Below are positions 2,782-53,827 of a stretch of 64,000 nucleotides of DNA, in pieces. The notes under the pieces are model-generated. The model ran no database searches. It saw only the letters and a list, made by a program, of their open reading frames with translations, and was not told the DNA's origin. The position numbers and the translations under genes are program-made. This DNA comes from Mobula hypostoma (Eukaryota). Every line of letters begins with the position of its first letter. Position 1 is the first letter of the stretch. The DNA is taken from positions 18,664,001-18,728,000 of the forward strand of contig NC_086097.1 of NCBI RefSeq assembly GCF_963921235.1, in the 5' to 3' direction.

Positions 2782-3703
2782 ATAGTGAATGAAAGAAGTG
2801 AAAACTGAAATTAAGAGCTAGTATCTTTACTTGTATTTTGGACAAGGGAAAATCAAGCCCTAGGTAGCCAATGGGCAATGAATATCTTCGATATGGTGAG
2901 ACTGGGATCTCTCAGGTGACCCCCAGTCTTCATGGAGCTCCCTGGTTAAGAGATTAAACGAGGAATGTTAAAGAGAGTGGGGAGCAAAGGCTGTAGGTGA
3001 AGCATTCAGGTAGGGCAGAGGTCAAGATGCTTTCTTTAAAAAACAAAGCAGTGTGGATGGATCTGGGTTCTAAACAATGGCTGAAAAAGGAATGAAGAAA
3101 GAAGGTGAAGGGATTAGAATCTGGAAGAAAAAGTGAGTAAAGAATGAATGCACGACACAATGAGAACAGAAACAGTGTTAAATGGTAATCTGAGCAGAGG
3201 CTGTTTTCAATGAGTTCATAATATTGAATACTACAGCAAGTACACTGTATAATTGTCATTGTTGCCATTATTAACCAGATTTATTGGACACTTGTAATAC
3301 AGTTTCTTTAAATTGTGTTTTATATACAGGGGACATAAGGAGATGACTGATCCATGGTTTGTAATATTGTCTGTTTGAAGTCGTTGTGGTAATTATGTTA
3401 ATAATATCATAATGGAGAAAAATGCCAGAGAAAATGTGTACAAGATCTACATGAAGATGTGATTTATTGGAATCACTGGTGCATGAAGTAGATATTCAGA
3501 ATGTTCAGTGCACCTTTCACTGAAGGGTTTTTGTAGATGAGGAAATGAAAAAGAGGCCAGCACAATTTCACAGCTAGTAAAGTCACTTCGTCACAATGCC
3601 AGAGACCCCAGTCCTGACCTCTGATTCTGCTTGCATAAATCCTCCCTGTGATCACGTAGATTCCCACTAGGTGCTCCGATTTCCTCACACCATTAGACCA
3701 AAA

Positions 3704-4225
3704 TACCATAAGACATAGGATCAGAATTAGGCCATTCAGGCCATCGAGTCTGTTCCACCATTCAATCGTGACTGATTTATTTTCCCTCTCTACCCTATTC
3801 TCTCCTTCTCCACCTACTCCTTGATGCTCCTATTAATCAAGAGCACATCAACCTACACTTTAAATATATACAATGACTTGGTCATCACCGCAGTTTGTGG
3901 CAATGAATTTCACAGATTCACCACCCTCTGGCTAAAGAAATTCCACCTCATTTCTTTTCTAAATGGACATCCTCGTATTCTGAGGCTAAGTCCTCTGGTC
4001 CTAAACTGCTGGAAACATCCTCTCCATGTCCACTCTATTTAGGTCTTTCAATAGGTGATAGGTTTCAATGTGACTCCCCTCACTCTTCTAAACTCCAGTG
4101 AGTAAAGGCCCAGAACCACCAAATGCTCCTTCTATTTCCAAGATTATCCTCGTGAACCTCCTCTGGACCCTCTTTAATGTCAGCACATCCTTGCTTAGAT
4201 AAGGGGCCCAAAACTGCTCACAGTA
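3704..4225 (-). mobile_element. CR1 LINE 3' fragment
   Basis: Collinear with 31674-32230 (3' UTR plus end of ORF2). Confidence 0.85.
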
Positions 4226-4321
4226 TTCACAGTACTCAGAATACAGAGTACTGTGAGTCAATATCAAAGCCTTATAAAGACTCAGGATGTATTTGGTCCA
4301 TTAATTGGCTATTCTACATTG

Positions 4322-4545
4322 CCCAAAAAGCAAAGTGCTGGAGGAACTGTTCAGTGAGTTAGCCAACATCTGTGGAGGCAAAGAGATGGTTAGCACTTCA
4401 AGATGAGACCTGGCACCAGGTCCTAATGAAAAATCTCAACCCAAAACATCAAGCATCCTTCTACCTCCACAGAAGATGCCTGACCTGTTGAGATCCTCCA
4501 ACGTTTTGTTCTTTGCTCCAGATTACAGCATCAGCAGAGTCTTGT
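4322..4545. mobile_element. Old palindromic Penelope-derived unit
   Basis: Diverged inverted arms (gctggaggaac...catctgtggagg / cctccacagaagatgcc...cctccaac) with the junction at an eroded hammerhead motif. Confidence 0.6.
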
Positions 4546-4996
4546 GTCATCATTGCAAACTGGCCCCAGTGCAGGGGTTCCCAACCTTTTGTAAGCCAAG
4601 GACCAATACCATTGAGCAAGGGGTCCGTGGACCCCAGCTTGGGAACTCTGCCCTGGTGTGAAAGCGTGTGGAACAAGCTGAGGGAATTGACGAGAATTTA
4701 GGAAGAACAAAAATAAACAAGATTAATGTTATATGACTGCAAATGGGTGATGATGGTCAGTGAGGAGTCAATGGGCTTAGCGGCCTGTTCCCATGCATTA
4801 TCTCTCTATGACGCTAAGAATCTGAGTGAATTTATGTCTGTGTACATTCAGAACTGTGGATATACTGTATGACATTGAAAATAATTAAATTATTGTAGGT
4901 AAACAGTAATTTGATGTTTTAATTTACTGTTTATATTTCTTGGTAAGGATATGTTGAAAGGCAGACAGCGGAACATTTACTGTGTGCATATTTTTG

Positions 4997-8885: not shown

Positions 8886-9052
8886 AAACGCAAAATAATC
8901 TGCAGATGCTGGGGTCAAAGCAACACTCACCACACGCTGGAGGAACTCAGCAGGTTGGGCAGCATCCATGGAAAAGATTGGTCGACGTTTCAGGCCGGAA
9001 CCGTGACGAAGGGTTCCGGCCCGAAACGTCGACCGATCTTTTCCACGGATGT
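8886..9052. mobile_element. Palindromic Penelope-derived unit with 12-bp TSD
   Basis: TSD tatccacactgt at 8874-8885 and 9053-9064; inverted arms meet inside the hammerhead motif. Confidence 0.85.
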
Positions 9053-14110: not shown

Positions 14111-14503
14111 TGCACACCCTGTGTTGGCATGTGGAGAGAGAACTGCACACTCTATACTTGCAAATAGAGGGTGCTGTGGACCCTGTGACCGATCTGATAG
14201 ATGTACTGCACACTGTGCCTGTAAATGGAGGGTGTGAGGCACACACACGCGTAACACACATTCTGTGTGCCAGAACACCAAGGGTGTAGTGCCCTTGTTG
14301 AGCTTGCACATAGTGTGTACAGACCATGGCAGTTACCGTACCTCACATGGCCTGTAACAAACATTTGACATTGCAGCTGAGTAGCTGAAGTGCGGAAGTG
14401 CAATACAGAAAGTCTGGAATTCAGCTGGAGACACAGGCCTTACCTACAGAGGGAAGGCTTGTTGAAGGATGACATAAAGGGGCAGTCGATACCCAAGACA
14501 TTT

Positions 14504-14639
14504 CTAGTCCTGACGAAGGGTCTCGGCCTGAAACGTCGACTGCGCTTCTTCCTATAGATGCTGCCTGGCCTGCTGCGTTCACCAGCAACTTTGATGTATG
14601 TTGCTTGAATTTCCAGCATCTGCAGAATTCCTGTTGTTT
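14504..14639 (+). mobile_element. Short Penelope-derived unit with 6-bp TSD
   Basis: TSD acattt at 14498-14503 and 14640-14645; homologous to the 3' terminus of the Penelope fragment at 19662-20294. Confidence 0.85.
14506..14541 (+). ncRNA. Minimal type I hammerhead ribozyme motif
   Basis: AGUC-CUGACGA-AGGGucucggCCU-GAAA-CG-UC-GACU: both core boxes, stem I AGUC/GACU, short stem II, palindromic ACGU stem III, GUC triplet. Confidence 0.75.
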
Positions 14640-14699
14640 ACATTTTTGGTGTGTTTACCAGTTGATGAAGAGCAGCTCGACATATGCAGTACTGTTGTC

Positions 14700-14960
14700 T
14701 GGATGACTAAGTGGAAAACCACTGGGATAGCATCCATTGCAGATGTGGGATACTGGCTATGCAGTCAAAATACCTGACTGCGTGTTGGTCAGAAGGGTCT
14801 GCTTTCATGCTGGATTTCATCACGGAAAGTGATTTCCAGAAAGGCAGGGAAACTGCTTCAAAGGTTATTCTTGAAACCTCCTTGAAGAATTGTAAAGTCC
14901 TCCTAACCTTTGGAAACCTCTGGCCCATAACCACCCAAAATGGAAAAGGGGTGGCCTGGA
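14700..14960 (+). mobile_element. Highly decayed RTE-clade LINE ORF C-terminal remnant
   Basis: Frameshifted translation resembling GRQ...FK..L.TSLKNC....W.PLAHN.PKW, like RTE C-termini. Confidence 0.45.
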
Positions 14961-15189
14961 GGCCAACATATTTCCTGAAAGTCATTGACCAGATCAAAGT
15001 TACGTGGATAGGGAATTGTTAGAGAGATGTCGGCTAAGCGCAGCCAAATGGGTAAGCATGGACAAGTTGGGCCAAAAATCCAGTTTTCGTGCTGCAAGCT
15101 GTGGAAACAGCAGAACTTCCCAGTTGTTGGCAAAGATGGGTATTGTAAATTTCCCAAAGGACAAACTACTGAAGAATTGCATGGCACAA

Positions 15190-15312
15190 AGTCCTGATGT
15201 AGGGTCTCGACCTCAAACGTCCTTCTGTCTCCACACACGCTGCCTAACCCATCGAGCTCCTCCAGCAGTTCATCTTTTGCCCCAGATTCTAGCATTAGCA
15301 GCTTTCCGTGTC
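15190..15312 (+). mobile_element. Degenerate Penelope-derived unit
   Basis: Starts agtcctgatgtagggtctcgacctcaaacgtc (eroded hammerhead). Confidence 0.65.
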
Positions 15313-15694
15313 CCAAATCATCGTTAATTTCAAAGGCCTGTCAAACAGAGAAATTAATTTTTGTCAAGTCTTAAACACACCAGAAAATTGGGCTAATTCA
15401 GATGCATTACGTTTCCCTTGGTCTGAGACTTGGACTTTAAATAAAGATGGTTTAATTAATTCCCACGGTAATCATAACTGTATTTAATATTCCTTTTAAC
15501 AAAAACAAGCTAATTTCTCCTGGGGGTTCCACGAGCACAGGCATTTCACTCTTATCTGACCATTCTGCTATAATTATGGTGTTTTGTTCCATCCATGTAC
15601 ATTTCTTCTGTAAAGGTTACACACAAAGCAATCATGGACAAATAATGAAACATTGTTATAAAATCATGTTAATTAAACAGAGTGATTACCCATT

Positions 15695-16265
15695 TTCTTC
15701 TAAGGCTCTGTAAAGCGTTGGTCAGACAGCACTTGTAATATTGTGAGCAGTTCAGGGGCCCTTTCTGAGAAAGCACAGGAGAGGATCCAAAGATTTACAA
15801 GAATCATTCAAAGAATGAACAGATTAAAGTATAAGGAGCATTGGATGGCTCTGGGCCTATACTCACAGAACTTCAGAAGAATCAGGGTGGGCCTCATTGA
15901 AACCTATTGAATATTCAAAGCCTAGATAGAGTGGATGTTGTGTGGGTGTTGATAGAGTGTTCCTTGTGTGGAGGAGTCTGGGAGCAAAGGGCACAGCCTC
16001 AGAAAACAAGGATATCCCATTAGAAAAGAGATGAGGAGGAATTTCTTTAGCAAGAGGTTGGTAAATCAGTGGAGCTCATTGCCACAGACAGCTGTGGTGG
16101 ACAGGTCATTGGGTATATTTAAAGCAGAGGTTAATAGGTTTTTGATTAGTCAGAGTGTCAAAAGTAACAGGGAGATGGTGAGAGGGATAATAAATCAACC
16201 ATGATTGAATGGCAGAGCAGACTCGATGGTTCAAATAGCCTAATTCAACTCTTGTTTTATGGTTT
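15695..16265 (+). mobile_element. Decayed CR1 3' fragment
   Basis: Encodes GHSLR...EMRRNFFS.RLVN.W..LP and the CR1 3' UTR. Confidence 0.85.
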
Positions 16266-16599
16266 AAAGTTGCTCTTTAAGTGTCATCATTATTCAGCGA
16301 TGAATTTGGCAAGACAAGGAGGTGACAGTGATGATAAGAGGATGGAGGAGACTGAGTTGCACTCCACCCTTTCAAGAAATGACCTGCTGATGTCGCAGGC
16401 TTAGTCCGTGCATTGGCATTCAAGACTGTCTTTTAAGTACACGTTTAATTGCTTAGGCAGATAGGAACTGTCTGTTTAGTCACACACATTATTCTATCCA
16501 TGCTAAGTCAGAAGTCACAAACCAGACTGATCGCATTTTTGTATGGGTGCGTATATTACTGGTCAGCTGACAGGGCTAGGTGATTTTGAATAGTAGTTA

Positions 16600-17865
16600 T
16601 CTTTAACCGCTTGCTTTGGCAGTCTGAGGTACCCACCTGCTTCAAACAGGCTTCAATTACACCAGTGACTAAAAAGAACATGGTGACCCACCTCAAAGAC
16701 TATCGTCAGGAGCACTTTGGTGAACTGCTTTGAGAGGTTGGTGATGAAACATATCAACTCCTGCCTGAGAAGCAACTTTGAACCTCTCCAATGTGCCTAG
16801 CATCACAACAGGTCCACGGCAGACGACATTTCAGTGGCTCGTCACTCAGCCCTGAAACATCCGGACAGCAAAGGTGCATAGATCAGGATGCTCTTTATGG
16901 ACAGCAGTTAGGCATTCAATACCAACATTCCTTCAAAACTAACCAATAAGCTTCAAGACATCGGCCTTTGTACCTCCTTGTGCAATTGATCCTTGGTTTC
17001 CTCAATTAAAGATGCAATTTTTTTTGGATTGACAAAAACATCTCCTCCACAATCTTTATCAGCACAGGTGCACCACAAGACTATGCACCTAACCCCTGCT
17101 CTACTTGGTTTGTACTTATAACTGTGAGGCTAAGGGCGGCTCCAATGCCATATTTAAGGTTACTGATGTCACCACTTGTAGGTTGAATCAAAGGTGGTGT
17201 TGAGTCAGCAAATGGGTGGGGGGGGGCGGAGATTGAAAATCTGGCTCAGTGGTGCCAGAACAATAACCTTTAAGGGTGGAGAGGATCAGCAACTTTAAAT
17301 TCCGTGGTATTATCATTTCAGAGGACTGTCCAAGGTCCAGCACAGCAGTGCCTCTACTTCCTTAGAAGTTTGTGAAGGTTTGGCATGACATCTAAAACTC
17401 TGACAAACTTCCATAGAAGTGGGGTGGACAGCAGATTGACTGGTTGCATCATGGCCTGGTGTGGAAACACCATTGCCCCACAATTGAGCACATCTACCCA
17501 GAGTGCTGTCACATGAAAGCAGCATCTATCATCAAAGATGCTCACCACACAGCCATGGTCTCTTCTCGCTGCTGCCATCAAGAAGGTGGTACAGGAGCCT
17601 TAGGGTCCCACACACCAGGTTTAGGAACAGTTATTACTCTTTAACCATTAGGCTCTTGAACCAGTGGGGTTAACTTCACTCTATCACTGAACTGTTCCCA
17701 CAATTTATAGACTCACTTTCAAAGACTCCTCAACTCATGTTCTCAAAATTTATTGCTTACTTATTTATTAATAATGTTGTTTTTTCCTCAGGGTTGTATA
17801 TGGCGACATATACAGTATGTACTTTGATGATAAATTTACATTGAACTTTTAAACTTTCAACTTTA
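16600..17865 (+). mobile_element. Decayed Rex1/Babar-type LINE (RT region to tail)
   Basis: Collinear with 19270-21230; gaacttt-type tail. Confidence 0.75.
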
Positions 17866-17869
17866 AAAT

Positions 17870-18735
17870 GTGTAGCTTTAAGGCAAAAGTACAGTGCAAG
17901 ACATAAACATTACTACAAGTTACAATCCTATGTCTTATACTCTAATAAATTAACCAATTTATAATGGAAAAGGGATAGTGAGCTAGTGATGATGAACCCT
18001 TCAGAAACATGATGGCAGAGGATAAGTCACATTATGTAAAACATTGAGCGTGGGTCTTCAGGCTCTTGTACCTCTCCCCTGATGGTAGTAGTGAGAAGAG
18101 GTTTTTTTAGCGTGTCGCACCAGACAGTCAGCCATTCTTGTCTGGCGCGTGGTGTCGGGATTGGTCTCCTTTCGGATTAACCGGGTCACGATATGAACAT
18201 TCCTGACTTGGCCCTTTTTGTTTTACAAGGCCAAGTGCCTAGCTCGACGCTCAACCCGGCACGGATGGAAGGTGTGCCGGGGAGGTGGCCCGACTTGGAT
18301 TCGAACTCGGGAGCCTTCGCTCTGGAGTCCGGCGCTGATGCCATTGCGCCACCAGCCGGCCTATTCCAGGTGGTGAGGGTGCTTTAATGACGGAAGCTGC
18401 CTTCCTGAGGCACCATCTTTTGAGGATGTTGTCAATGGTGTGGAGGGCTGTGCCCATGAATGAACTGGCTGAACCTACAACCCTCTGCAGTCTCTTTCAA
18501 TCCTCTGCATTGGGTCCTCCATAACAGATAATGATGCAACCAGGCAGACTGTTCACCACAGTGCTTCTGTAGTAACTTGCTGGAGTCTTCGGTGACAAAC
18601 AAAATCTCCTCAAATTCCCAAGTATAGGTATTGATGTTCCTTTTTTGTGATTGCATCAATGTGTTAGGTCCAGGATAGATCAGCTGAGATGTTGATGTCC
18701 AGCAACTTAAGGCTGCTTGTTCTTTCCACCCCTCA
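17870..18735 (-). mobile_element. Decayed Rex1/Babar LINE 3' fragment, interrupted by a SINE
   Basis: Encodes CLRKAASVIK; tail-to-tail with the preceding copy. Confidence 0.7.
18101..18360 (-). mobile_element. tRNA-derived SINE
   Basis: A box tggcgcaatgg and B box gttcgaatcc on the minus strand; head shared with the copy at 63358. Confidence 0.8.
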
Positions 18736-19661
18736 ATAAGAATTTGCCTTTCCCTTTGTAACTTCAGTTACCCTTTCTACAAACTCACTTGTCAGTAATG
18801 GTGAGGGACTTCAGTTGTCTGGTAAGGTGAGAAGCTGTGTTGTTCTCTTTGGAACCAAGGGTGTTAGGAAAACACCTGTTGGTGATATTTAAATTCATGG
18901 AGGGTCTGAACTGATTAGATAGAGAGAAACTATTTCCATTAGCAGAGGGGACAAGAAATAGAAGATGTTCTGTAAAAATGGAGTGTGTGCGAAGATGCAA
19001 AAAGAGCATAAGGAATATTTCTAGCCCAAGTGTTTGAGGGTCTGGAATGCAATGCCTGGGAAGAAAGTGGTTCAATCAAAGCAATGAACAGGGAACACAG
19101 TCCCGATGATCCTTTGGTCTCATTACCTGAAGATGACATGAGGGCTGTGTTCATGAGAGTAAATCCAAGGAAAGCATTCGGTCCGGATGGAGTACCTGGC
19201 CGAGTACTGAAGCCCTGGGCTGACCAACTGGCTGGTGTAGTCACAGATATCTTCAACCTCTCTCTCTGGCAGTGTGTGGTACCCACCTGCTTCAAGCAGG
19301 CTTCAATTGTACCAGTGCCTAAGGAAAGTGTGATAACCTGCCTCGATGACTATCGCCCAGTTACATTTACATCCACAGTGATGAAGTGTTTTGAGATGCT
19401 GGTGCTGAAACATATCAGCTCCTGTCTGAATGGTGACTTGGACCCACTCCAATTCACCTACCAAAGCAACAGGTCTACAGCAGATGCTATCTTGTTGGCT
19501 CTTCACACAGCCTTGGAACATCTGGAGAGCAAAGATGCATACATCAGCATGCTCTTTATCAATTACATCTTGGCGTTTAACATCATCACCAATTCAAGTC
19601 AAGTCACTTTTTATTGTCATTTCGACCATAACTGCTGGTACCAGGACACAGTAAAAACAAG

Positions 19662-20294
19662 AACACGAGGAATTCTGCAGATGCTGGAAATTCAAGCAAC
19701 ACACACAAAAAATGCTGGTGAATGCAGCAGGCCAGGCAGAATCTCTAGGAAGAGGTACAGTCGACGTTTCGGGCCGAGACTCTTCGTCAGGACTAACTGA
19801 AAGAAGAGATAGTAAGCGATTTGAAAGTGGGAGGGGGAGGGGAAGATCCGAAATGACAGGAGAAGACCGGGGGGGGAGGGATGGGGCTAAGAGCTGGAAA
19901 GTTGATTGGCAAAAGGGATACGAGGCTGGAGAAGGGAGAGGATCATGGGACGGGAGGCCTAGGGAGAAAGAAAGGGGGAGGGGAGCCCAGAGGATGGGCA
20001 AGGAATTATATTGAGAGGGAGGGAGAAAAAGGAGAGAAGATAGATAGATAGATAAATAAATAAAGGATGGGGTACGAGGGGGAGGTGGGGCATTAACAGA
20101 AGTTAGAGAAGTCAATTTTCATGCCATCAGGTTGGAGGCTACCCAGACGCAATATATGGTGTTGTTCCTCCAGCCTGAGTGTGGCTTCATCTTGACAGTA
20201 GAGGAGGCCGTGGATAGACATATCAGAATGGGGATGGGACATGGAATTAAAATGTGTGGCCACTGGGAGATCCTGCTTTCTCTGGCGGACAGAG
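19662..20294 (-). mobile_element. 5'-truncated Penelope-like element (GIY-YIG C-terminus, 3' UTR, terminal unit with hammerhead at 19759-19794)
   Basis: ORF 20093-20302 PVATHFN...GLLYC...RLEEQ..ILRLGSLQPDGM resembles the C-terminal part of Penelope GIY-YIG endonucleases; pyrimidine-rich UTR. Confidence 0.85.
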
Positions 20295-21329
20295 CAAGAC
20301 AACGTTTTTCAGGACCATGGTGCTACATCACAATCACTCCCTGAAAACTAGTCAGTAATCTGGCCTTCAATACACTTTGTGCGATTGGATCATAGATTTC
20401 ATCATGTAGATCCCGGTCAGTTCAGATTGACAAGTACATCTTCTCCACAATCTCCATCAGCACAGGAGCCCCACAGGGATGTGTGCTTAGTCCGCTGCTC
20501 TTCCTATGTGTGCGAGGCTAATTACAGCTCCAACACCATGTACAAGTTTGCTGATGACACTACTTTTGCGGGCTGTATCTAAAGGGGTGACGAATCAGCG
20601 GACAGGAGGGAGATTGAGAACTTGGCTGAGTAGTGTAATAACAACAGCCTCTTACTCAATGTCAGTAAGACCACAGAACTGATTGTAGACCAGGAGAGGG
20701 AAACCAGGGCTTCACGAGCCAGTACTCATCAGAGGATCAGAGGTGGAGAGGGTCAGTAACTTTAAATTCCTGGGTGTCACTAGCTCAGAGCCCCTGTCCT
20801 GGACCCACCATATAAATATTATTGCACAGAAAGCACGACAATGCCTCTACTTCCTCAGTAGTCTGCGGAGATTCGGCATCTTATCGAAAGCCTTGGCAAA
20901 CTTCAATAGATGTGTGGTGGAAAGGGTGCTGACTGGCTGCATTACGGCCTGGTATGGGAACACCAATACCCTTGAGTGGAAAATTCTACATAAGGTAGTG
21001 GATTTGGCCCAGTACATCATGGGTAGAACTCTTCCAACCATTGAGCACGTCTAGATGAAATGTTGCTGTAGAAAAGCAGGATCCATCATCAAAGACCCTC
21101 TCCACCCAGGCCATACTCTCTTCTTGTTGCTGCCATTGGGTAGAAGATACAGGTGTCTCAGGACTCACACCACCAGGTTCATGGACATTTACTACCCCTC
21201 AACCATCAGGCCCATGAACAAAAGGGGATAGCTACACTCATTTACAGACACATTCAAGAGCTATATTATATTGTTATTTCCTGCTTATTATTTGGTACTA
21301 TTTATAGTGTCTTTAAAAAGTATTCACCC

Positions 21330-21419
21330 GAAGGGTCCCGGCCCGAAACGTTGACTGTACCTCTTCCTATAGATGCTGCCTGGCCTGCTGCCTTCCCCAG
21401 CATTTTTTATGTGTGTTGC
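21330..21419 (+). mobile_element. Short Penelope-derived unit inside the Tc1 TIR
   Basis: Starts within the hammerhead core (gaagggtcccggcccgaaacgttgact); flanked by ttcacc. Confidence 0.75.
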
Positions 21420-22859
21420 TTCACCTGCCCCCCTCCCCCGGAAGTTTTTGTGTCTTATTGTTTTACAACATTGAATCACAGTGGGTGTAGTCTGGCTTTT
21501 TTGACGCTGATCAACAGACAGACTCCTTCGGGTCAAAGTGAAAACAAATTTCTACAAATTGGTCTAAATTTATTACACTTATAAAACACAAAATAATTGA
21601 TTGCATAATTACTCACCCACTTCAAGTCAGTATTTAATAAATGCATCTTTGGCAGCAATTGCAGCCTTGAATCTGTGAGCATAAGTCTCTATCAGCTTTG
21701 CACATCTGGCCACTGCAATTTTCCCCCATTCTTTTTTACTGAACTGCTCAAGCTCTATCAGATTGCATGGGCATTGTGAGTGAACAGCCCTTTTCAAGTC
21801 CAGCCACAAATTCTCAATTGGATTGAGGTCTGAACTCTGACTTACCCACTCCAGGACATTAACTTTGTTGTTTTTAAGCCATTCCTGTGTAGTTTTAGCC
21901 TCTATGCTCGGGATCATTTTCTTGCTGGAAAACAAATCTTCTCCCAAGTTGCAACTTTCCTGCAGACTGCATTAGGTTTTCATCCAGGATTTCCCTGTAT
22001 TTTGCTGCATTCATTTTACCCTCTACTCTCATAGACCTTCCAGGGCCTGCTGCAGTGAAGCATTCCCAAAGCATGATACACCACCATGCTTCATGGTAGG
22101 GATGGTGTATTTTTGATGATGTGCAGTGTTCAACTTACGCCAAACATAGCGTTTAGTCAGGTGGTCAAAAAGCTCAATTTTGGTTTCATCAGACCATGGA
22201 ACCTTCTTCCAGCTGACTTCAGAGTCTCCCAGATGACTTCTGGCAAACTAGTCGAGATTTCATGGGAGATTTTTTCCCAGCAATGGTTTCTCTTTGCCAC
22301 TTTCCCATAAAGCTGTGACTGGTGAAGCACCCGGGCAACAGTTGTATGTGCTGAAGTTTTAACACATCCAGAGTTGTCACAGGTCTCTTGGTGGGCTCCC
22401 TCACTAGTCCCCTTCTTGCAGTCACTCAGTTTTTGAGGACTGGCTGCTCTAGGCAGCTTTACAGCTGTGCCATATTCTTTCCATTTCTTGATGATTGACT
22501 TAACTGTACTCCAAGGGATATTCAGGGACTTGGAAATTATCTTGCATCCATCTCCTGACTTGTGCTTTTCAATAACCTTTCCGTGGAGCTTCTTGGAGTG
22601 ATCCTTTGTCTTCATGGTGTAGTTTTCGCCAGTAAACTGACTCAGCAGCAGTTGGACCTCCTCCTCCTCCGCTTTCTCCTCCTCCTCCTTCTACTTCTTC
22701 TTCTTCTAGTCCAACTTAAAGTTGCATTACCACCGCCAAATGGACTGCAGTGTTAAGTGGAGTGTTGGGAAATAAAACACCTGCTAGTTCTTGATCAAAT
22801 GAAAACTAAATTACCCCAAAAAGCCCTATAGATAGTAAAAAATAAAAGACATCATTGTG

Positions 22860-23640
22860 AATTAAATTAAATTTGAGTTTGAATTAATTTAAATCTTACA
22901 TCCACCCCACAACATGAGGGAGTAAAAATCTTTGTGTTATGACTCCGTCGCAATGTACAGACACATGAATTTATAAGTCTAATGGCTTGTAGAAAGTAGC
23001 TGTCCCATAGCCGGTTGGTCCTGGCTTTAATGCTGCGGTACTGTTTGCCAGACAGAAACAGCTCAAGCAGTTATGGTTGGGGTGACTGGTGTCCCTGATG
23101 ATCTTTCAGGCCTTCTTTACACACCTGCGGCTGTAAGTGTCCTCAATGGAGGAAAAAGTCACATCCACAGATGTGCTGGGCTGTCTGTACCACTCTATGC
23201 AGTGCCCAGTGATCAAGGTTGGTGTAGTTCCCATACCAGACAGTGATACAGCTAGTCAGGAGGCTCTCAATGGCGCCCATGTTTAAGGTCTTAAGGATTT
23301 GCGGGCTCTTGCCGAGTTTCTTCAGTTGCCTGAGATGGAAGAGATGATGTTGTGCTTTTTTTGCCACACAATTAGTGTGTACAATTCAGGTGAGATCTTT
23401 GATGATGTATATACTGAGGAATTTGAAACTATTCACCCTCTCAACTGCAGTCCCATTGATGTTGATTGGGGCAAGTCTGTCTCTGTTACTCCTGTAACCC
23501 ATGATCAGTTGTTTTATTTTTTGGACATTGAGGGAGAAGTTATTATCTTGGGCACCACTGCGTCAGGGTATTAACCTCTCCTGCATAGGCTGTCTCGTCA
23601 CCACTAGAAATCAGGCCGATCAATGTTGTGTCACTTCCAT
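22860..23640 (-). mobile_element. Rex1/Babar LINE 3' fragment nested in Nimb
   Basis: Encodes KKAQHHLFHLRQLKK and AIESLLTSCITVWYGN. Confidence 0.8.
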
Positions 23641-23685
23641 AACTAGGTAAGGTTTTTAAATGAAACCTGACAACCCCCAAAGCCA

Positions 23686-23904
23686 CATACATCAAAGTTG
23701 CTGGTGAACGCAGCAGGCCAAGCAGCATCTATAGGAAGAGGCGCAGTTGACGTTTCAGGCCGAGACCCTTCGTCAGGGTCTCGGCCTGAAACGTCGACTG
23801 CGCCTCTTCCTATAGATGCTGCTTGGCCTGCTGCGTTCACCAGCAACTTTGATGTATGTTGCTTGAATTTCCAGCATCTGCAGAATTCCTGTTGTTTGCG
23901 TTTA
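23686..23904. mobile_element. Young palindromic Penelope-derived unit with 14-bp TSD
   Basis: TSD aacccccaaagcca at 23672-23685 and 23905-23918; ~84-bp near-perfect inverted arms. Confidence 0.9.
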
Positions 23905-24480
23905 AACCCCCAAAGCCAGTAGTGCAGCCTGTTTTTGCTTTCTTTCAAGCTTATATGCTTCACATTGTAAAAGAATTTCAGCTTTCATAATGATGACAAC
24001 ACCTACACACCCCACAGGGATGTTTTCCAACAAGAGACGAGGAATAGTAAAGCATAGGATGCCCAATTTTAAGTTGAGTCAATATAATTCCTTCCCTTCT
24101 TGTCTTACCCCCTTCTCCCATTAATCCAACAGTTATATGTATTTTGTAAAGATGTCTCCCTTATGCCCATAATCCCACAGGTATTGCCATAATCCCCTAA
24201 TTCTTAGCCCCACCAACCCCGTAGCTTCTGATTTGCTAAATGGAAGGTCTATATCCACAGATCAACTTTTAACAGCATTGTCGGTCAAACAATCAACTCA
24301 TTCATTCCCCTCAACACCTCTATGTGCTGGAACCCATATGAAGCAGACATGTAATCCAATACTTTGAATATGAAGTAAAGTTTGAAGAGCTTCCTGCAGT
24401 AAATCTGACCCACTGCTAGAATGACCTGTTTTAAGACTAGTCAAAGCCAAAAAAGAATCTAAACAAATTGTAACTTTACA

Positions 24481-24577
24481 CTAGGAACTCTGCAGATGCT
24501 GGAAGTTCAAGCAACACACGTCAAAGTTGCTGGTGAACGAAGCAGGCCAGGCAGCGCCTCTAGGAAGAGGTACAGTC
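24481..24577 (-). mobile_element. 97-bp Penelope-derived unit starting at the predicted ribozyme cleavage site
   Basis: 5' end GACTGTACC; flanks ttgtaactttaca / ttttaactttgca (11 of 13 match). Confidence 0.8.
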
Positions 24578-24884
24578 TTTTAACTTTGCAAGGTCAAGTT
24601 TCCTCCACCCACTGTAAGCCCAAAATGATGGCAACAATGCTGCTGTATATACTGATAAATGGTTAGTAATACATTTCTTTATTGTTACCTGCAATTCAGG
24701 CACAAAAACAGCCACACCGGAGTCCAGTGGGTGCATTAGCAGAGCTCCAACAACCCACCATGAAACTCTATTAATTAGAGCATATTTATCCCGCCTTGTC
24801 AGGAGACAGCTGTCCCGCGGTTAAAAACTGTTTGTTTTTTTCACTAAAAGTGCTAGTAACAACTTTAAGAGATAATTCTGTACA

Positions 24885-44093: not shown

Positions 44094-44192
44094 TACACAC
44101 ACAAAATGCTGGAGAAGCTCAGAAAGTCAGGTAGCATCTATGGAAAGGAGTAAAGAATCAATGTTTTTGGCCAAGATCCTTCATCAGGACTC
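44094..44192 (-). mobile_element. Degenerate Penelope-derived unit
   Basis: Ends ...ccttcatcaggact, at the start of hammerhead stem I on the minus strand. Confidence 0.7.
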
Positions 44193-53445: not shown

Positions 53446-53617
53446 ACCCTTCTGAGGATGCAAAAGGGGTGTGAGGATTAGTTTTGTTAATTGCTGGTGC
53501 CACTGAAAACCTGATTTAAACAAAGCCAGACCTCTTATACCCAGGCGAGGTTTGCCTGAAGTGGTTGCAAACTTGGTCTTACTTCAATAGTGAGGATACA
53601 GATTTATTCCTTCACAA

Positions 53618-53827
53618 TACACACAAAAAATGCTGGTGAACGCAGCAGGCCAGGCAGCATCTATAGTAAGAGGTACAGTCAATGTTTAGGAAAGTCCTGA
53701 TGAAGGGTCTGGGCCCTTAACGTCAACTGTGCCTCTTCCTATAGATGCTGCCTGGCCTGCTGCGTTCACCAGCATTTCTTGTGTGTGTTGCTTGAAATTC
53801 CAGCATCTGCAGATTTCCTCATGTTTG
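53618..53827. mobile_element. Palindromic Penelope-derived unit
   Basis: Inverted arms; agtcctgatgaaggg at the junction; flanks attccttcac / attctttcac. Confidence 0.85.

What the first reader, a model, noticed from the sequence alone, without database searches (positions are those of the whole stretch)
24468..24590. An insertion whose 5' end is exactly the predicted ribozyme cleavage site
Seen: the minus-strand copy at 24481-24577 begins GACTGTACC, the nucleotide immediately after GAAACGUC in longer copies, and is bounded by a 13-bp duplication with 2 mismatches. Inference: it could be a cDNA of the 3' self-cleavage product, which would be fossil evidence that the hammerhead cut in vivo. One copy alone could be chance truncation.
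Basis: partly seen in the sequence, partly recalled or inferred. Interest (0 to 1): 0.75.

Follow-up and report, generated by a model that had tools for sequence, protein, structure and literature searches.

The report
Truncated Penelope retrotransposon copy, hammerhead-site start
This is an old, shortened copy of the tail end of a very abundant Penelope-like jumping gene; it does begin exactly at the cut site of the element's small hammerhead ribozyme, but one copy cannot tell coincidence from real ribozyme cutting, and the wider checks I could run showed no sign of a pile-up of copies at that site.

Summary
Window 24481-24577 (-) starts at the base after GAAACGTC of longer copies. It is flanked by an 11-of-13 direct repeat (empirical P about 0.001).

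The repeat is the 3' end of a young, very abundant Penelope-like element (PLE). The element has a 3.5-kb unit, a 1043-aa RT plus GIY-YIG ORF, partial tandems, head-to-head inverted copies and an optional tail of about 35 bp. About 103 nt from its 3' end it carries a minimal, stem-III-less hammerhead of the published PLE type.

The inference that this copy is a cDNA of self-cleaved RNA is not established:
- In 358 kb of local sample, no other copy end lies at the cut site. 16 ends fall between -31 and +72, and only this one is at +1.
- TSD-backed short copies mostly begin 32-41 nt upstream, with the hammerhead intact.
- One genome-wide pattern search gave 23 apparent starts at +1. All four places I inspected are complex inverted pairs. 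Nine more belong to recurrent junction or deletion classes.
- Two other junction types each filled all 40 scored places.

A full single-base histogram and RNA-end data could not be obtained. My reading: chance 5' truncation about 0.7, cleaved-RNA template about 0.2.

The parts
24481..24577 (-). The copy in question: a 97-bp 5'-truncated 3' end of a Penelope-like element. It covers positions +1 to about +100 relative to the hammerhead cut and includes the optional tail. It is 88% identical to the young reference copy.
24578..24590 (.). Target-site duplication, the copy next to the element's 5' end (TTTTAACTTTGCA on the plus strand)
24468..24480 (.). Target-site duplication, the copy next to the element's 3' end (TTGTAACTTTACA on the plus strand). 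Its last 3 bases may belong to the element.
19662..20295 (-). Longer copy of a related subfamily (-530 to +101). Its hammerhead lies at about 19795-19758 and the cut falls between 19763 and 19762.
14505..14645 (+). Young short copy (99% to reference) that starts 33 nt before the cut with the whole hammerhead (14505-14542). Flanking repeat ACATTT.
21329..21421 (+). Copy starting at -24 inside the hammerhead and ending at the tail-less 3' end (+69)
23680..23897 (.). Head-to-head inverted pair. The arms end at -29 (minus arm, 23680-23777) and -21 (plus arm, 23775-23897). The same junction recurs at 40 of 40 scored genomic places.
53615..53826 (.). Head-to-head inverted pair. The arms end at -7 (minus arm, 53615-53687) and -32 (plus arm, 53693-53826).
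8899..9033 (.). Older head-to-head pair of a diverged subfamily (8899-8997 minus, 9004-9033 plus)
44095..44191 (-). Old decayed copy (73% identity) with a mutated hammerhead core

Best explanation
The 97-bp segment is an ordinary, old, 5'-truncated insertion of the 3' end of a Penelope-like retrotransposon.

Inferred mechanism: the element's reverse transcriptase started at the distal of its two internal start sites, so the tail is present. It copied about 100 nt of RNA and stopped or fell off, and the short cDNA was joined to the target, leaving a 10-13-bp duplication. That the stop falls on the first base after the hammerhead's GUC is most likely coincidence.

Shown here: the boundaries, the duplication, the identity of the parent element, and the hammerhead anatomy. 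Inferred: the cause of the stop.
For: Parent element:
- The last 793 nt of long copies encode a GIY-YIG-like stretch, then about 300 nt of C-rich UTR, then the hammerhead and a further 103 nt or so.
- A full copy (L051) is a partial tandem: 1-1066 equals 3513-4582 at 99.25%, giving a 3516-nt unit. Its 1043-aa ORF runs across the tandem junction.
- Pfam gives RVT_1 at residues 534-696 (E 3.8e-5) followed by GIY-YIG at 946-1020 (E 1.1e-3).
- 963 homologues at E<=1e-10 carry PF00078 and often PF01541.
- Heavy 5' truncation, inverted 5'-truncated partners and a 30-40-bp tail are the published PLE hallmarks (PMC8557442 and PMC11167929, passages read). All are seen here: two 3' ends at about +67 to +72 and at +103, and many head-to-head pairs.

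No pile-up at +1:
- Among 16 copy ends between -31 and +72 in 358 kb, only this copy is at +1.
- The ten TSD-backed simple short copies start at -41, -41, -40, -38, -35, -33, -33, -32, +1 and +44. The usual template therefore kept the hammerhead uncut.
- Genome-wide, a pattern requiring three non-consensus bases before +1 of the young family gave 23 hits. All 4 places fetched are inverted pairs or complex.
- The CAG class (5 hits) is a junction with 4 nt of helix-I microhomology, found at 40 of 40 scored places.
- The CCT class (4 hits) reads as a deletion variant; its 3 members on contig C18 span inverted pairs.
- The CGT hit fits a 1-nt deletion in a full copy.
- At most 2 to 4 hits could be simple +1 copies.
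- Published work on an Anolis PLE found that hammerhead mutants insert normally, and found no RNA-seq reads ending at the cut site (PMC11167929, passage).
Against: - The coincidence is exact, and the duplication makes the boundary precise.
- In the local sample only two TSD-backed simple copies end between -31 and +60 (this one and one at +44). If such ends are uniform, the chance that a given one hits +1 is about 1 in 90.
- Mechanistically, a 3' cleavage product would still hold both internal start sites for reverse transcription, so a copy of exactly this form is what cleavage would predict.
- Inverted pairs with arms meeting at or near +1 exist: self plus about 8 approximate places among 40 scored.
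- I have no counts for neighbouring positions, so a modest excess is not excluded.
Confidence: 0.7

Rival explanations
1. The copy is a cDNA of the 3' product of hammerhead self-cleavage. A transcript reading through the last unit was cut after GUC. The fragment, which still holds the internal start sites for reverse transcription, was copied to its new 5' end and inserted.
For: - The start is exactly at +1, with a significant TSD.
- The motif has all the core features of the published PLE minimal hammerhead.
- It forms a conserved block (about -32 to +6) across diverged subfamilies whose flanks differ.
- PLE reverse transcription starts internally (PMC11167929), so a cut fragment could serve as template.
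- Ends between -31 and +60 are rare in simple copies.
Against: - Only one copy.
- No other +1 end in 358 kb.
- Of the 23 genome-wide hits in the young family, at most 2 to 4 can be simple copies. Short copies that begin at -33 to -38 are far commoner: 3 of 29 top hits, leaving out the query itself.
- The most prolific family has U rather than C at position 11.1.
- The Anolis PLE work found no reads at the cut site and no need for cleavage.
Confidence: 0.2
2. The reverse transcriptase stopped or switched template at +1 because of the folded hammerhead (the base of helix I at the three-way junction), without any RNA cleavage.
For: Structure-driven junctions are clearly common in this element. 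The -29/-21 hairpin junction and the helix-I microhomology junction each fill all 40 scored places.
Against: - Those structure-driven products are inverted pairs, whereas this copy is a simple insertion with a TSD.
- A stall caused by helix I would be expected before +5, not after it (inference).
- Most simple copies read through the whole hammerhead.
Confidence: 0.07
3. The copy was once longer and lost its 5' part through a later deletion or rearrangement.
For: The copy is old (about 12% diverged; 2 of 13 TSD positions changed).
Against: The 5' copy of the duplication abuts +1 directly. A later deletion would have removed or displaced it.
Confidence: 0.03

Closest known systems
Minimal hammerheads (min-HHR) of metazoan Penelope-like elements (Cervera and De la Pena 2014, PMC4209133; parts 1-2 of the text read)
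   Same: - CUGANGA and GAAA boxes and a GUC cut triplet.
- No stem III or loop 3, with a palindromic ACGU.
- An extra base between positions 9 and 10.1.
- A 5-bp helix I.
- Lies in the repeated end of a PLE.
- Also occurs as pairs on opposite strands and as many solitary truncated copies.
   Different: - Helix II here is short (3 G-C pairs plus a U-G, with a 4-nt loop), not the 7-8 bp described for Schistosoma.
- The young family has G-U instead of G10.1-C11.1.
- Activity was not tested here.
PAc, the Poseidon PLE of Anolis carolinensis (Mob DNA 2024, PMC11167929; passages read)
   Same: - The hammerhead lies just before or at the start of the ORF, so the ORF spans the tandem junction.
- Two 3' ends 30-40 bp apart (the 'tail').
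- Tandem organisation.
   Different: - That work was done in vitro. It found cleavage only with protein present, found no effect of hammerhead mutants on insertion, and found no RNA-seq reads at the cut site.
- Here only genomic copies could be read. In this element the ATG lies about 68 nt after the cut, not before it.
R2 elements with an HDV-like ribozyme (PMC3774820, abstract seen in the listing; review PMC6765202, passages)
   Same: The idea that a self-cleaving ribozyme sets the 5' end of the RNA template, so that genomic copies begin at the cut site.
   Different: - A different ribozyme class and a different element class.
- In R2 the cut coincides with the 5' junction of the element as a rule. 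Here most copies begin elsewhere, and only one simple copy begins at the cut.
Non-LTR retrozymes and Schistosoma SINE-like hammerhead elements (PMC7229834 and bioRxiv 10.64898/2026.07.22.740005, abstracts only)
   Same: Short non-coding repeats with type I hammerheads, related to PLE ends.
   Different: Those are tandem arrays thought to spread through circular RNA. The copies here are dispersed, TSD-flanked 5'-truncated ends or inverted pairs of an autonomous PLE.

Membership tests
Endonuclease-bearing Penelope-like elements | Single ORF with a reverse transcriptase followed by a C-terminal GIY-YIG endonuclease | tested here: met
   The 1043-aa ORF of L051 has RVT_1 at residues 534-696 (E 3.8e-5, 23.9 bits, below the 29.6 cut-off) and GIY-YIG at 946-1020 (E 1.1e-3, 19.7 bits, below 22.6). 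The order is right but both scores are below Pfam's cut-offs. Homologues carry PF00078 and, in part, PF01541.
Endonuclease-bearing Penelope-like elements | Partial tandem copies forming pseudo-LTRs | tested here: met
   L051 1-1066 repeats 3513-4582 at 99.25%, giving a 3516-nt unit.
Endonuclease-bearing Penelope-like elements | Frequent 5' truncation, adjacent inverted 5'-truncated copies, and an optional 30-40-bp tail | tested here: met
   5' ends are spread from beyond -1500 to +72. There are many head-to-head pairs. 3' ends lie at about +67 to +72 or at +103.
Minimal hammerhead of metazoan PLEs | Core boxes CUGANGA and GAAA with cut triplet GUC, position 7 free | tested here: met
   Alignment of 33 distinct local copies. 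The boxes are conserved. Position 7 varies among C, T and A in otherwise intact cores.
Minimal hammerhead of metazoan PLEs | No stem III or loop 3; positions 15.2-16.2 palindromic; an extra base between 9 and 10.1; helix I of 4-5 bp | tested here: met
   GAAAC is followed directly by GTC, giving the palindrome ACGT. There is an extra A after CTGACGA. GACTG pairs with TAGTC. 89.9% of cells are paired in helices I and II.
Minimal hammerhead of metazoan PLEs | G10.1-C11.1 pair | tested here: inconclusive
   G-C in 14 of 33 copies and G-U in 15 of 33. The young, most abundant family has U.
Minimal hammerhead of metazoan PLEs | Helices supported by compensatory changes | tested here: not met
   One pair has a change on both sides, no better than shuffles (419 of 500 shuffles reach it). 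The support is conservation, not covariation. Thermodynamic folds are not better than shuffles (z -1.05 and +0.67).
Minimal hammerhead of metazoan PLEs | Self-cleavage (as a dimer) | not testable with these tools
   No assay was possible. The RNA runs found are contigs only.
Rfam hammerhead families | Match to a curated hammerhead covariance model | tested here: not met
   No family at gathering score in the window. No hammerhead family at E<=10 in 14400-24700. This is expected for a motif without stem III.
Retroelements whose 5' end is set by a ribozyme (R2-like logic) | Copies begin at the cut site as a rule | tested here: not met
   1 of 10 TSD-backed short copies starts at +1; 8 of 10 start at -32 to -41. 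Long copies extend far upstream.

The most novel reading that the evidence does not exclude
The minimal hammerhead of this vertebrate Penelope-like element does cut in vivo. Occasionally the 3' fragment, which retains the internal start sites for reverse transcription, is copied and inserted. Simple TSD-flanked copies starting at +1, like this one, would then be rare fossils of that event. A genome-wide count of them would give the first in vivo readout of PLE hammerhead activity.
Probability: 0.2. Interest if true: 0.65.

Novelty: already known. Interest (0 to 1): 0.3.

Why it matters
What the hammerhead does in Penelope-like elements is still unclear. Reviews and primary papers say so (PMC8557442; PMC6765202). 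The one biochemical study found no need for cleavage and no RNA ends at the site (PMC11167929).

A clear excess of insertions starting at the cut site would be cheap, purely genomic evidence that cleavage happens in the germ line. This genome, with tens of thousands of very young copies, would be a good place to look.

As it stands, the copy is an ordinary truncated repeat. The partial checks point the other way: the templates that were inserted mostly kept an uncut hammerhead.

Tried and rejected
- **Rfam:** nothing at gathering score in the window. At E<=10 there were only chance-level or hairpin-driven hits. For example, the mir-3926 hit lies on the inverted pair at 23740-23804.
- **Protein libraries:** Pfam on pieces of a truncated, frameshifted copy gave no hit. 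PDB sequence search and NCBIfam on the full ORF gave no hit.
- **RNA evidence:** no RNA holder is listed. All 24 runs are kept as contigs and labelled only as guessed RNA. Laying four of them gave no places where molecules begin or end, which contigs cannot show anyway. No verdict.
- **Position-by-position pattern counts:** one short pattern ran. Neighbouring positions therefore have no counts.
- **Covariation and folding energy:** neither adds support.
- **Earlier notes of this scan:** none for this genome. The notes on other genomes only repeat that PLE hammerheads are a known kind.
- **Lunse et al. 2016/2017:** not held. I cite it only as listed in PMC6765202.
- **Hypothesis considered and dropped:** that the short copies form a separate SINE. 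Most genomic copies extend upstream into the 3' UTR and ORF of the PLE.

Full report
**Observation.**
- On the minus strand the copy runs from 24577 down to 24481 and begins GACTGTACC.
- Longer copies in the window have GAAACGTC (19770-19763, minus) or GAAACGTT (21345-21352, plus) directly before the same GACTGTACC.
- The flanks 24468-24480 and 24578-24590 match at 11 of 13. The same test slid over the whole window reaches that level at a fraction of 0.0011 of positions.
- The boundary is therefore exact and the segment is a true insertion with a target-site duplication. The 3' repeat copy may share three bases with the element's own end, which would shorten the duplication to 10 bp.

**What the repeat is.**
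- BLAST of a long copy against the window finds ten further segments, several of them as head-to-head inverted pairs.
- The window's genome (3.48 Gb, 200 contigs) holds a very young family. A search with the 150-bp copy at 14505-14654 gave 1491 first-look candidates, and the 40 scored were 98-100% identical.
- In most of the 30 loci fetched, the homology runs far upstream.
- The last 793 nt of long copies encode a GIY-YIG-like stretch and a stop. About 300 nt of C-rich sequence follow, then the hammerhead, then about 103 nt.
- A search with the RT fragment gave 67,318 candidates. At least 13 of the 150 scored places lie in open frames of 1043 aa.
- One such copy (L051) is a partial tandem: 1-1066 equals 3513-4582 at 99.25%, giving a 3516-nt unit. 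Its 1043-aa frame opens about 59 nt after the hammerhead cut, inside the terminal region of the upstream unit, and runs across the tandem junction.
- Pfam gives RVT_1 and then GIY-YIG in the right order, both below the curated cut-offs.
- 963 homologues at E<=1e-10 carry PF00078 and often PF01541. The best named one is an uncharacterised shark protein at 73% identity.
- The published hallmarks of Penelope-like elements are all present: tandem pseudo-LTRs, heavy 5' truncation, an adjacent inverted truncated copy and an optional 30-40-bp tail (PMC8557442, passages; PMC11167929, passages).
- Copies end either at about +67 to +72 or at +103. This matches the two internal start sites for reverse transcription described for the Anolis element.

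**The hammerhead.** Coordinates are counted from the cut.

| Positions | Feature |
|---|---|
| -33 to -29 and +1 to +5 | helix I (5 bp, including one G-U) |
| -28 to -22 | CTGACGA box |
| -21 | extra A |
| -20 to -9 | helix II (three G-C pairs, a U-G pair and a 4-nt loop) |
| -8 to -5 | GAAA |
| -5 to -2 | the palindrome ACGT, with no stem III loop |
| -1 | C17 |

- These are the features listed for the minimal hammerhead of metazoan PLEs, which is thought to act as a dimer and cleaves poorly in vitro (PMC4209133, parts 1-2 read).
- In 33 distinct local copies the block from about -32 to +6 is conserved across subfamilies whose flanks differ, and position 7 varies freely.
- 89.9% of cells in the two helices are paired, but there is no covariation beyond shuffles. 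Folding energies are unremarkable.
- Rfam's hammerhead models do not match.
- The young family has U at 11.1, at a CpG, where older subfamilies have C.

**Where copies start: local sample.**
- I examined 358 kb: the 64-kb window, 16 randomly placed 10-kb regions, and the flanks of loci fetched for other reasons. Duplicates were removed. The primary hits of selected loci are not used as unbiased data.
- BLAST starts at -32 in old, 70-80% identical copies are mostly the edge of the conserved block, not truncations, because their upstream flanks continue as diverged pyrimidine-rich UTR. I dropped four further apparent starts (+12, +17, +18, +34) because the upstream sequence is visibly a diverged or rearranged continuation.
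- That leaves 16 ends between -31 and +72: -29, -26, about -25, -24, -23, -21, -14, -8, -7, -7, -7, +1, +44, +58, +70 and +72. Nine of them are arms of inverted pairs. Only the copy in question is at +1.
- Simple short copies whose ends are backed by a TSD start at -41, -41, -40, -38, -35, -33, -33, -32, +1 and +44. Three of these (-38, -35 and one -33) come from loci selected by a query that itself began at -33.
- So the common template for short copies reached to just upstream of the hammerhead and was uncut.

**Where copies start: genome-wide.**
- One short pattern ran. It required three non-consensus bases followed by the first 28 bases after the cut of the young family. It gave 23 matches (12 forward, 11 reverse) and none for the reversed control.
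- The upstream triplets are AGA x6, CAG x5, CCT x4, AGT x2, ACT x2, and CGT, TAG, CGA and ACA once each. That is too repetitive for independent target sites.
All four are inverted pairs or more complex.
  - L052 has a 14-bp perfect TSD around two arms that meet at +1 with 3 bases between. It can also be read as a hairpin on a deletion variant.
  - L053 has both arms ending at +1 with an 8-base filler.
  - L054 has an inverted arm reaching about -28 to -32 joined to a direct arm at +1 to +5 through 4 shared bases, GACT. That is the helix I complementarity, as expected if a cDNA that ended near -33 folded back on itself.
  - L055 has an inverted arm ending at +7, an 11-base slipped filler, and a direct arm from +1.
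- The L054 junction fills 40 of 40 scored places at 96-100% identity (431 candidates).
- The -29/-21 junction of the window's own pair at 23741-23811 also fills 40 of 40 (1053 candidates).
- A junction with both arms at +1 found only itself plus about 8 approximate places among 40 scored (427 candidates). The same call shows that three CCT hits on contig C18 are inverted pairs. It also shows that the second AGT and ACT hits are single arms.
- The CGT hit fits a one-base deletion in a full copy.
- At most 2 to 4 of the 23 can therefore be simple copies starting at +1.
- For scale, 3 of the 29 top hits (leaving out the query itself) are simple copies starting at -33 to -38.
- A rough scaling from one exact 28-mer in 224 kb suggests on the order of ten thousand such copies, with very wide error. 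Simple +1 copies are thus rare, and roughly what a flat background would give.
- I could not obtain counts at neighbouring positions, so this is not a formal test.

**RNA.** No run on record as RNA holds the element. All listed runs are contigs, which cannot show molecule ends, and laying four of them showed none. This says nothing either way.

**Interpretation.**
- The best-supported reading is an ordinary 5'-truncated PLE end whose stop point coincides with the cut site by chance (about 0.7).
It is mechanistically sound, because reverse transcription in these elements starts internally, so a 3' cleavage fragment would still be a template. Ends between -31 and +60 are also rare among simple copies.
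- A structure-induced stop (0.07) and later deletion (0.03) are less likely.
- The literature I could read contains no report of PLE copies beginning at the hammerhead cut (searches; listings, abstracts and the passages named above). The nearest precedent for the logic is R2 and its HDV-like ribozyme (PMC3774820, abstract in the listing).

**Limits.**
- The supplements of the cited papers were not opened. Fig. S2 of PMC11167929, on genomic and RNA ends, may bear on the question.

Noticed in passing
window 14505 (5' end of the copy at 14505-14645); L006, L016, L024, L028, L030, L031, L049: TSD-backed short copies start in a narrow zone 32-41 nt before the cut, just upstream of helix I of the hammerhead (8 of 10 such copies). 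3 of the 29 top genome hits also start at -33 to -38. This looks like a preferred RNA 5' end, perhaps the transcription start in the pseudo-LTR. That would put the hammerhead at the very 5' end of the transcript.
   Followed up: partly
window 23741-23811: The head-to-head junction of this inverted pair (arms ending at -29 and -21, around the CCT...AGG palindrome of the ribozyme box) recurs with the same length at 40 of 40 scored genomic places at 95-100% identity, with 1053 candidates. It is a structure-templated, recurrent product, probably from fold-back of the cDNA end.
   Followed up: partly
L054 29-99: A second recurrent junction joins an inverted arm that reaches helix I's 3' strand to a direct arm at +1 to +5 through 4 shared bases (GACT). 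It is found at 40 of 40 scored places, with 431 candidates. It mimics a copy 'starting at the cut site' without any RNA cleavage.
   Followed up: partly
L051 1023-4151: The 1043-aa ORF opens inside the last 45 nt or so of the preceding unit (first ATG about 68 nt after the cut). An intact gene therefore exists only across a tandem junction. At least 13 of 150 scored places have a 1043-aa open frame at 98% identity, so the family looks recently or currently active.
   Followed up: partly
alignment A1, column 28 (position 11.1): The youngest and most abundant family has U instead of C at 11.1, the C of a CpG. This turns the conserved G10.1-C11.1 pair into G-U, yet the family has spread the most.
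   Followed up: no
genome places of the CCT class; L052: A variant lacks the ribozyme core between two GAC triplets (about -23 to +3 removed). It occurs in several copies, partly within inverted pairs.
   Followed up: no
window 23740-23804: Rfam's mir-3926 and mir-H2 models score on this stretch on both strands, below their gathering scores (50.3 bits against 82). The cause is the long hairpin made by the inverted retrotransposon pair, not a microRNA gene.
   Followed up: yes
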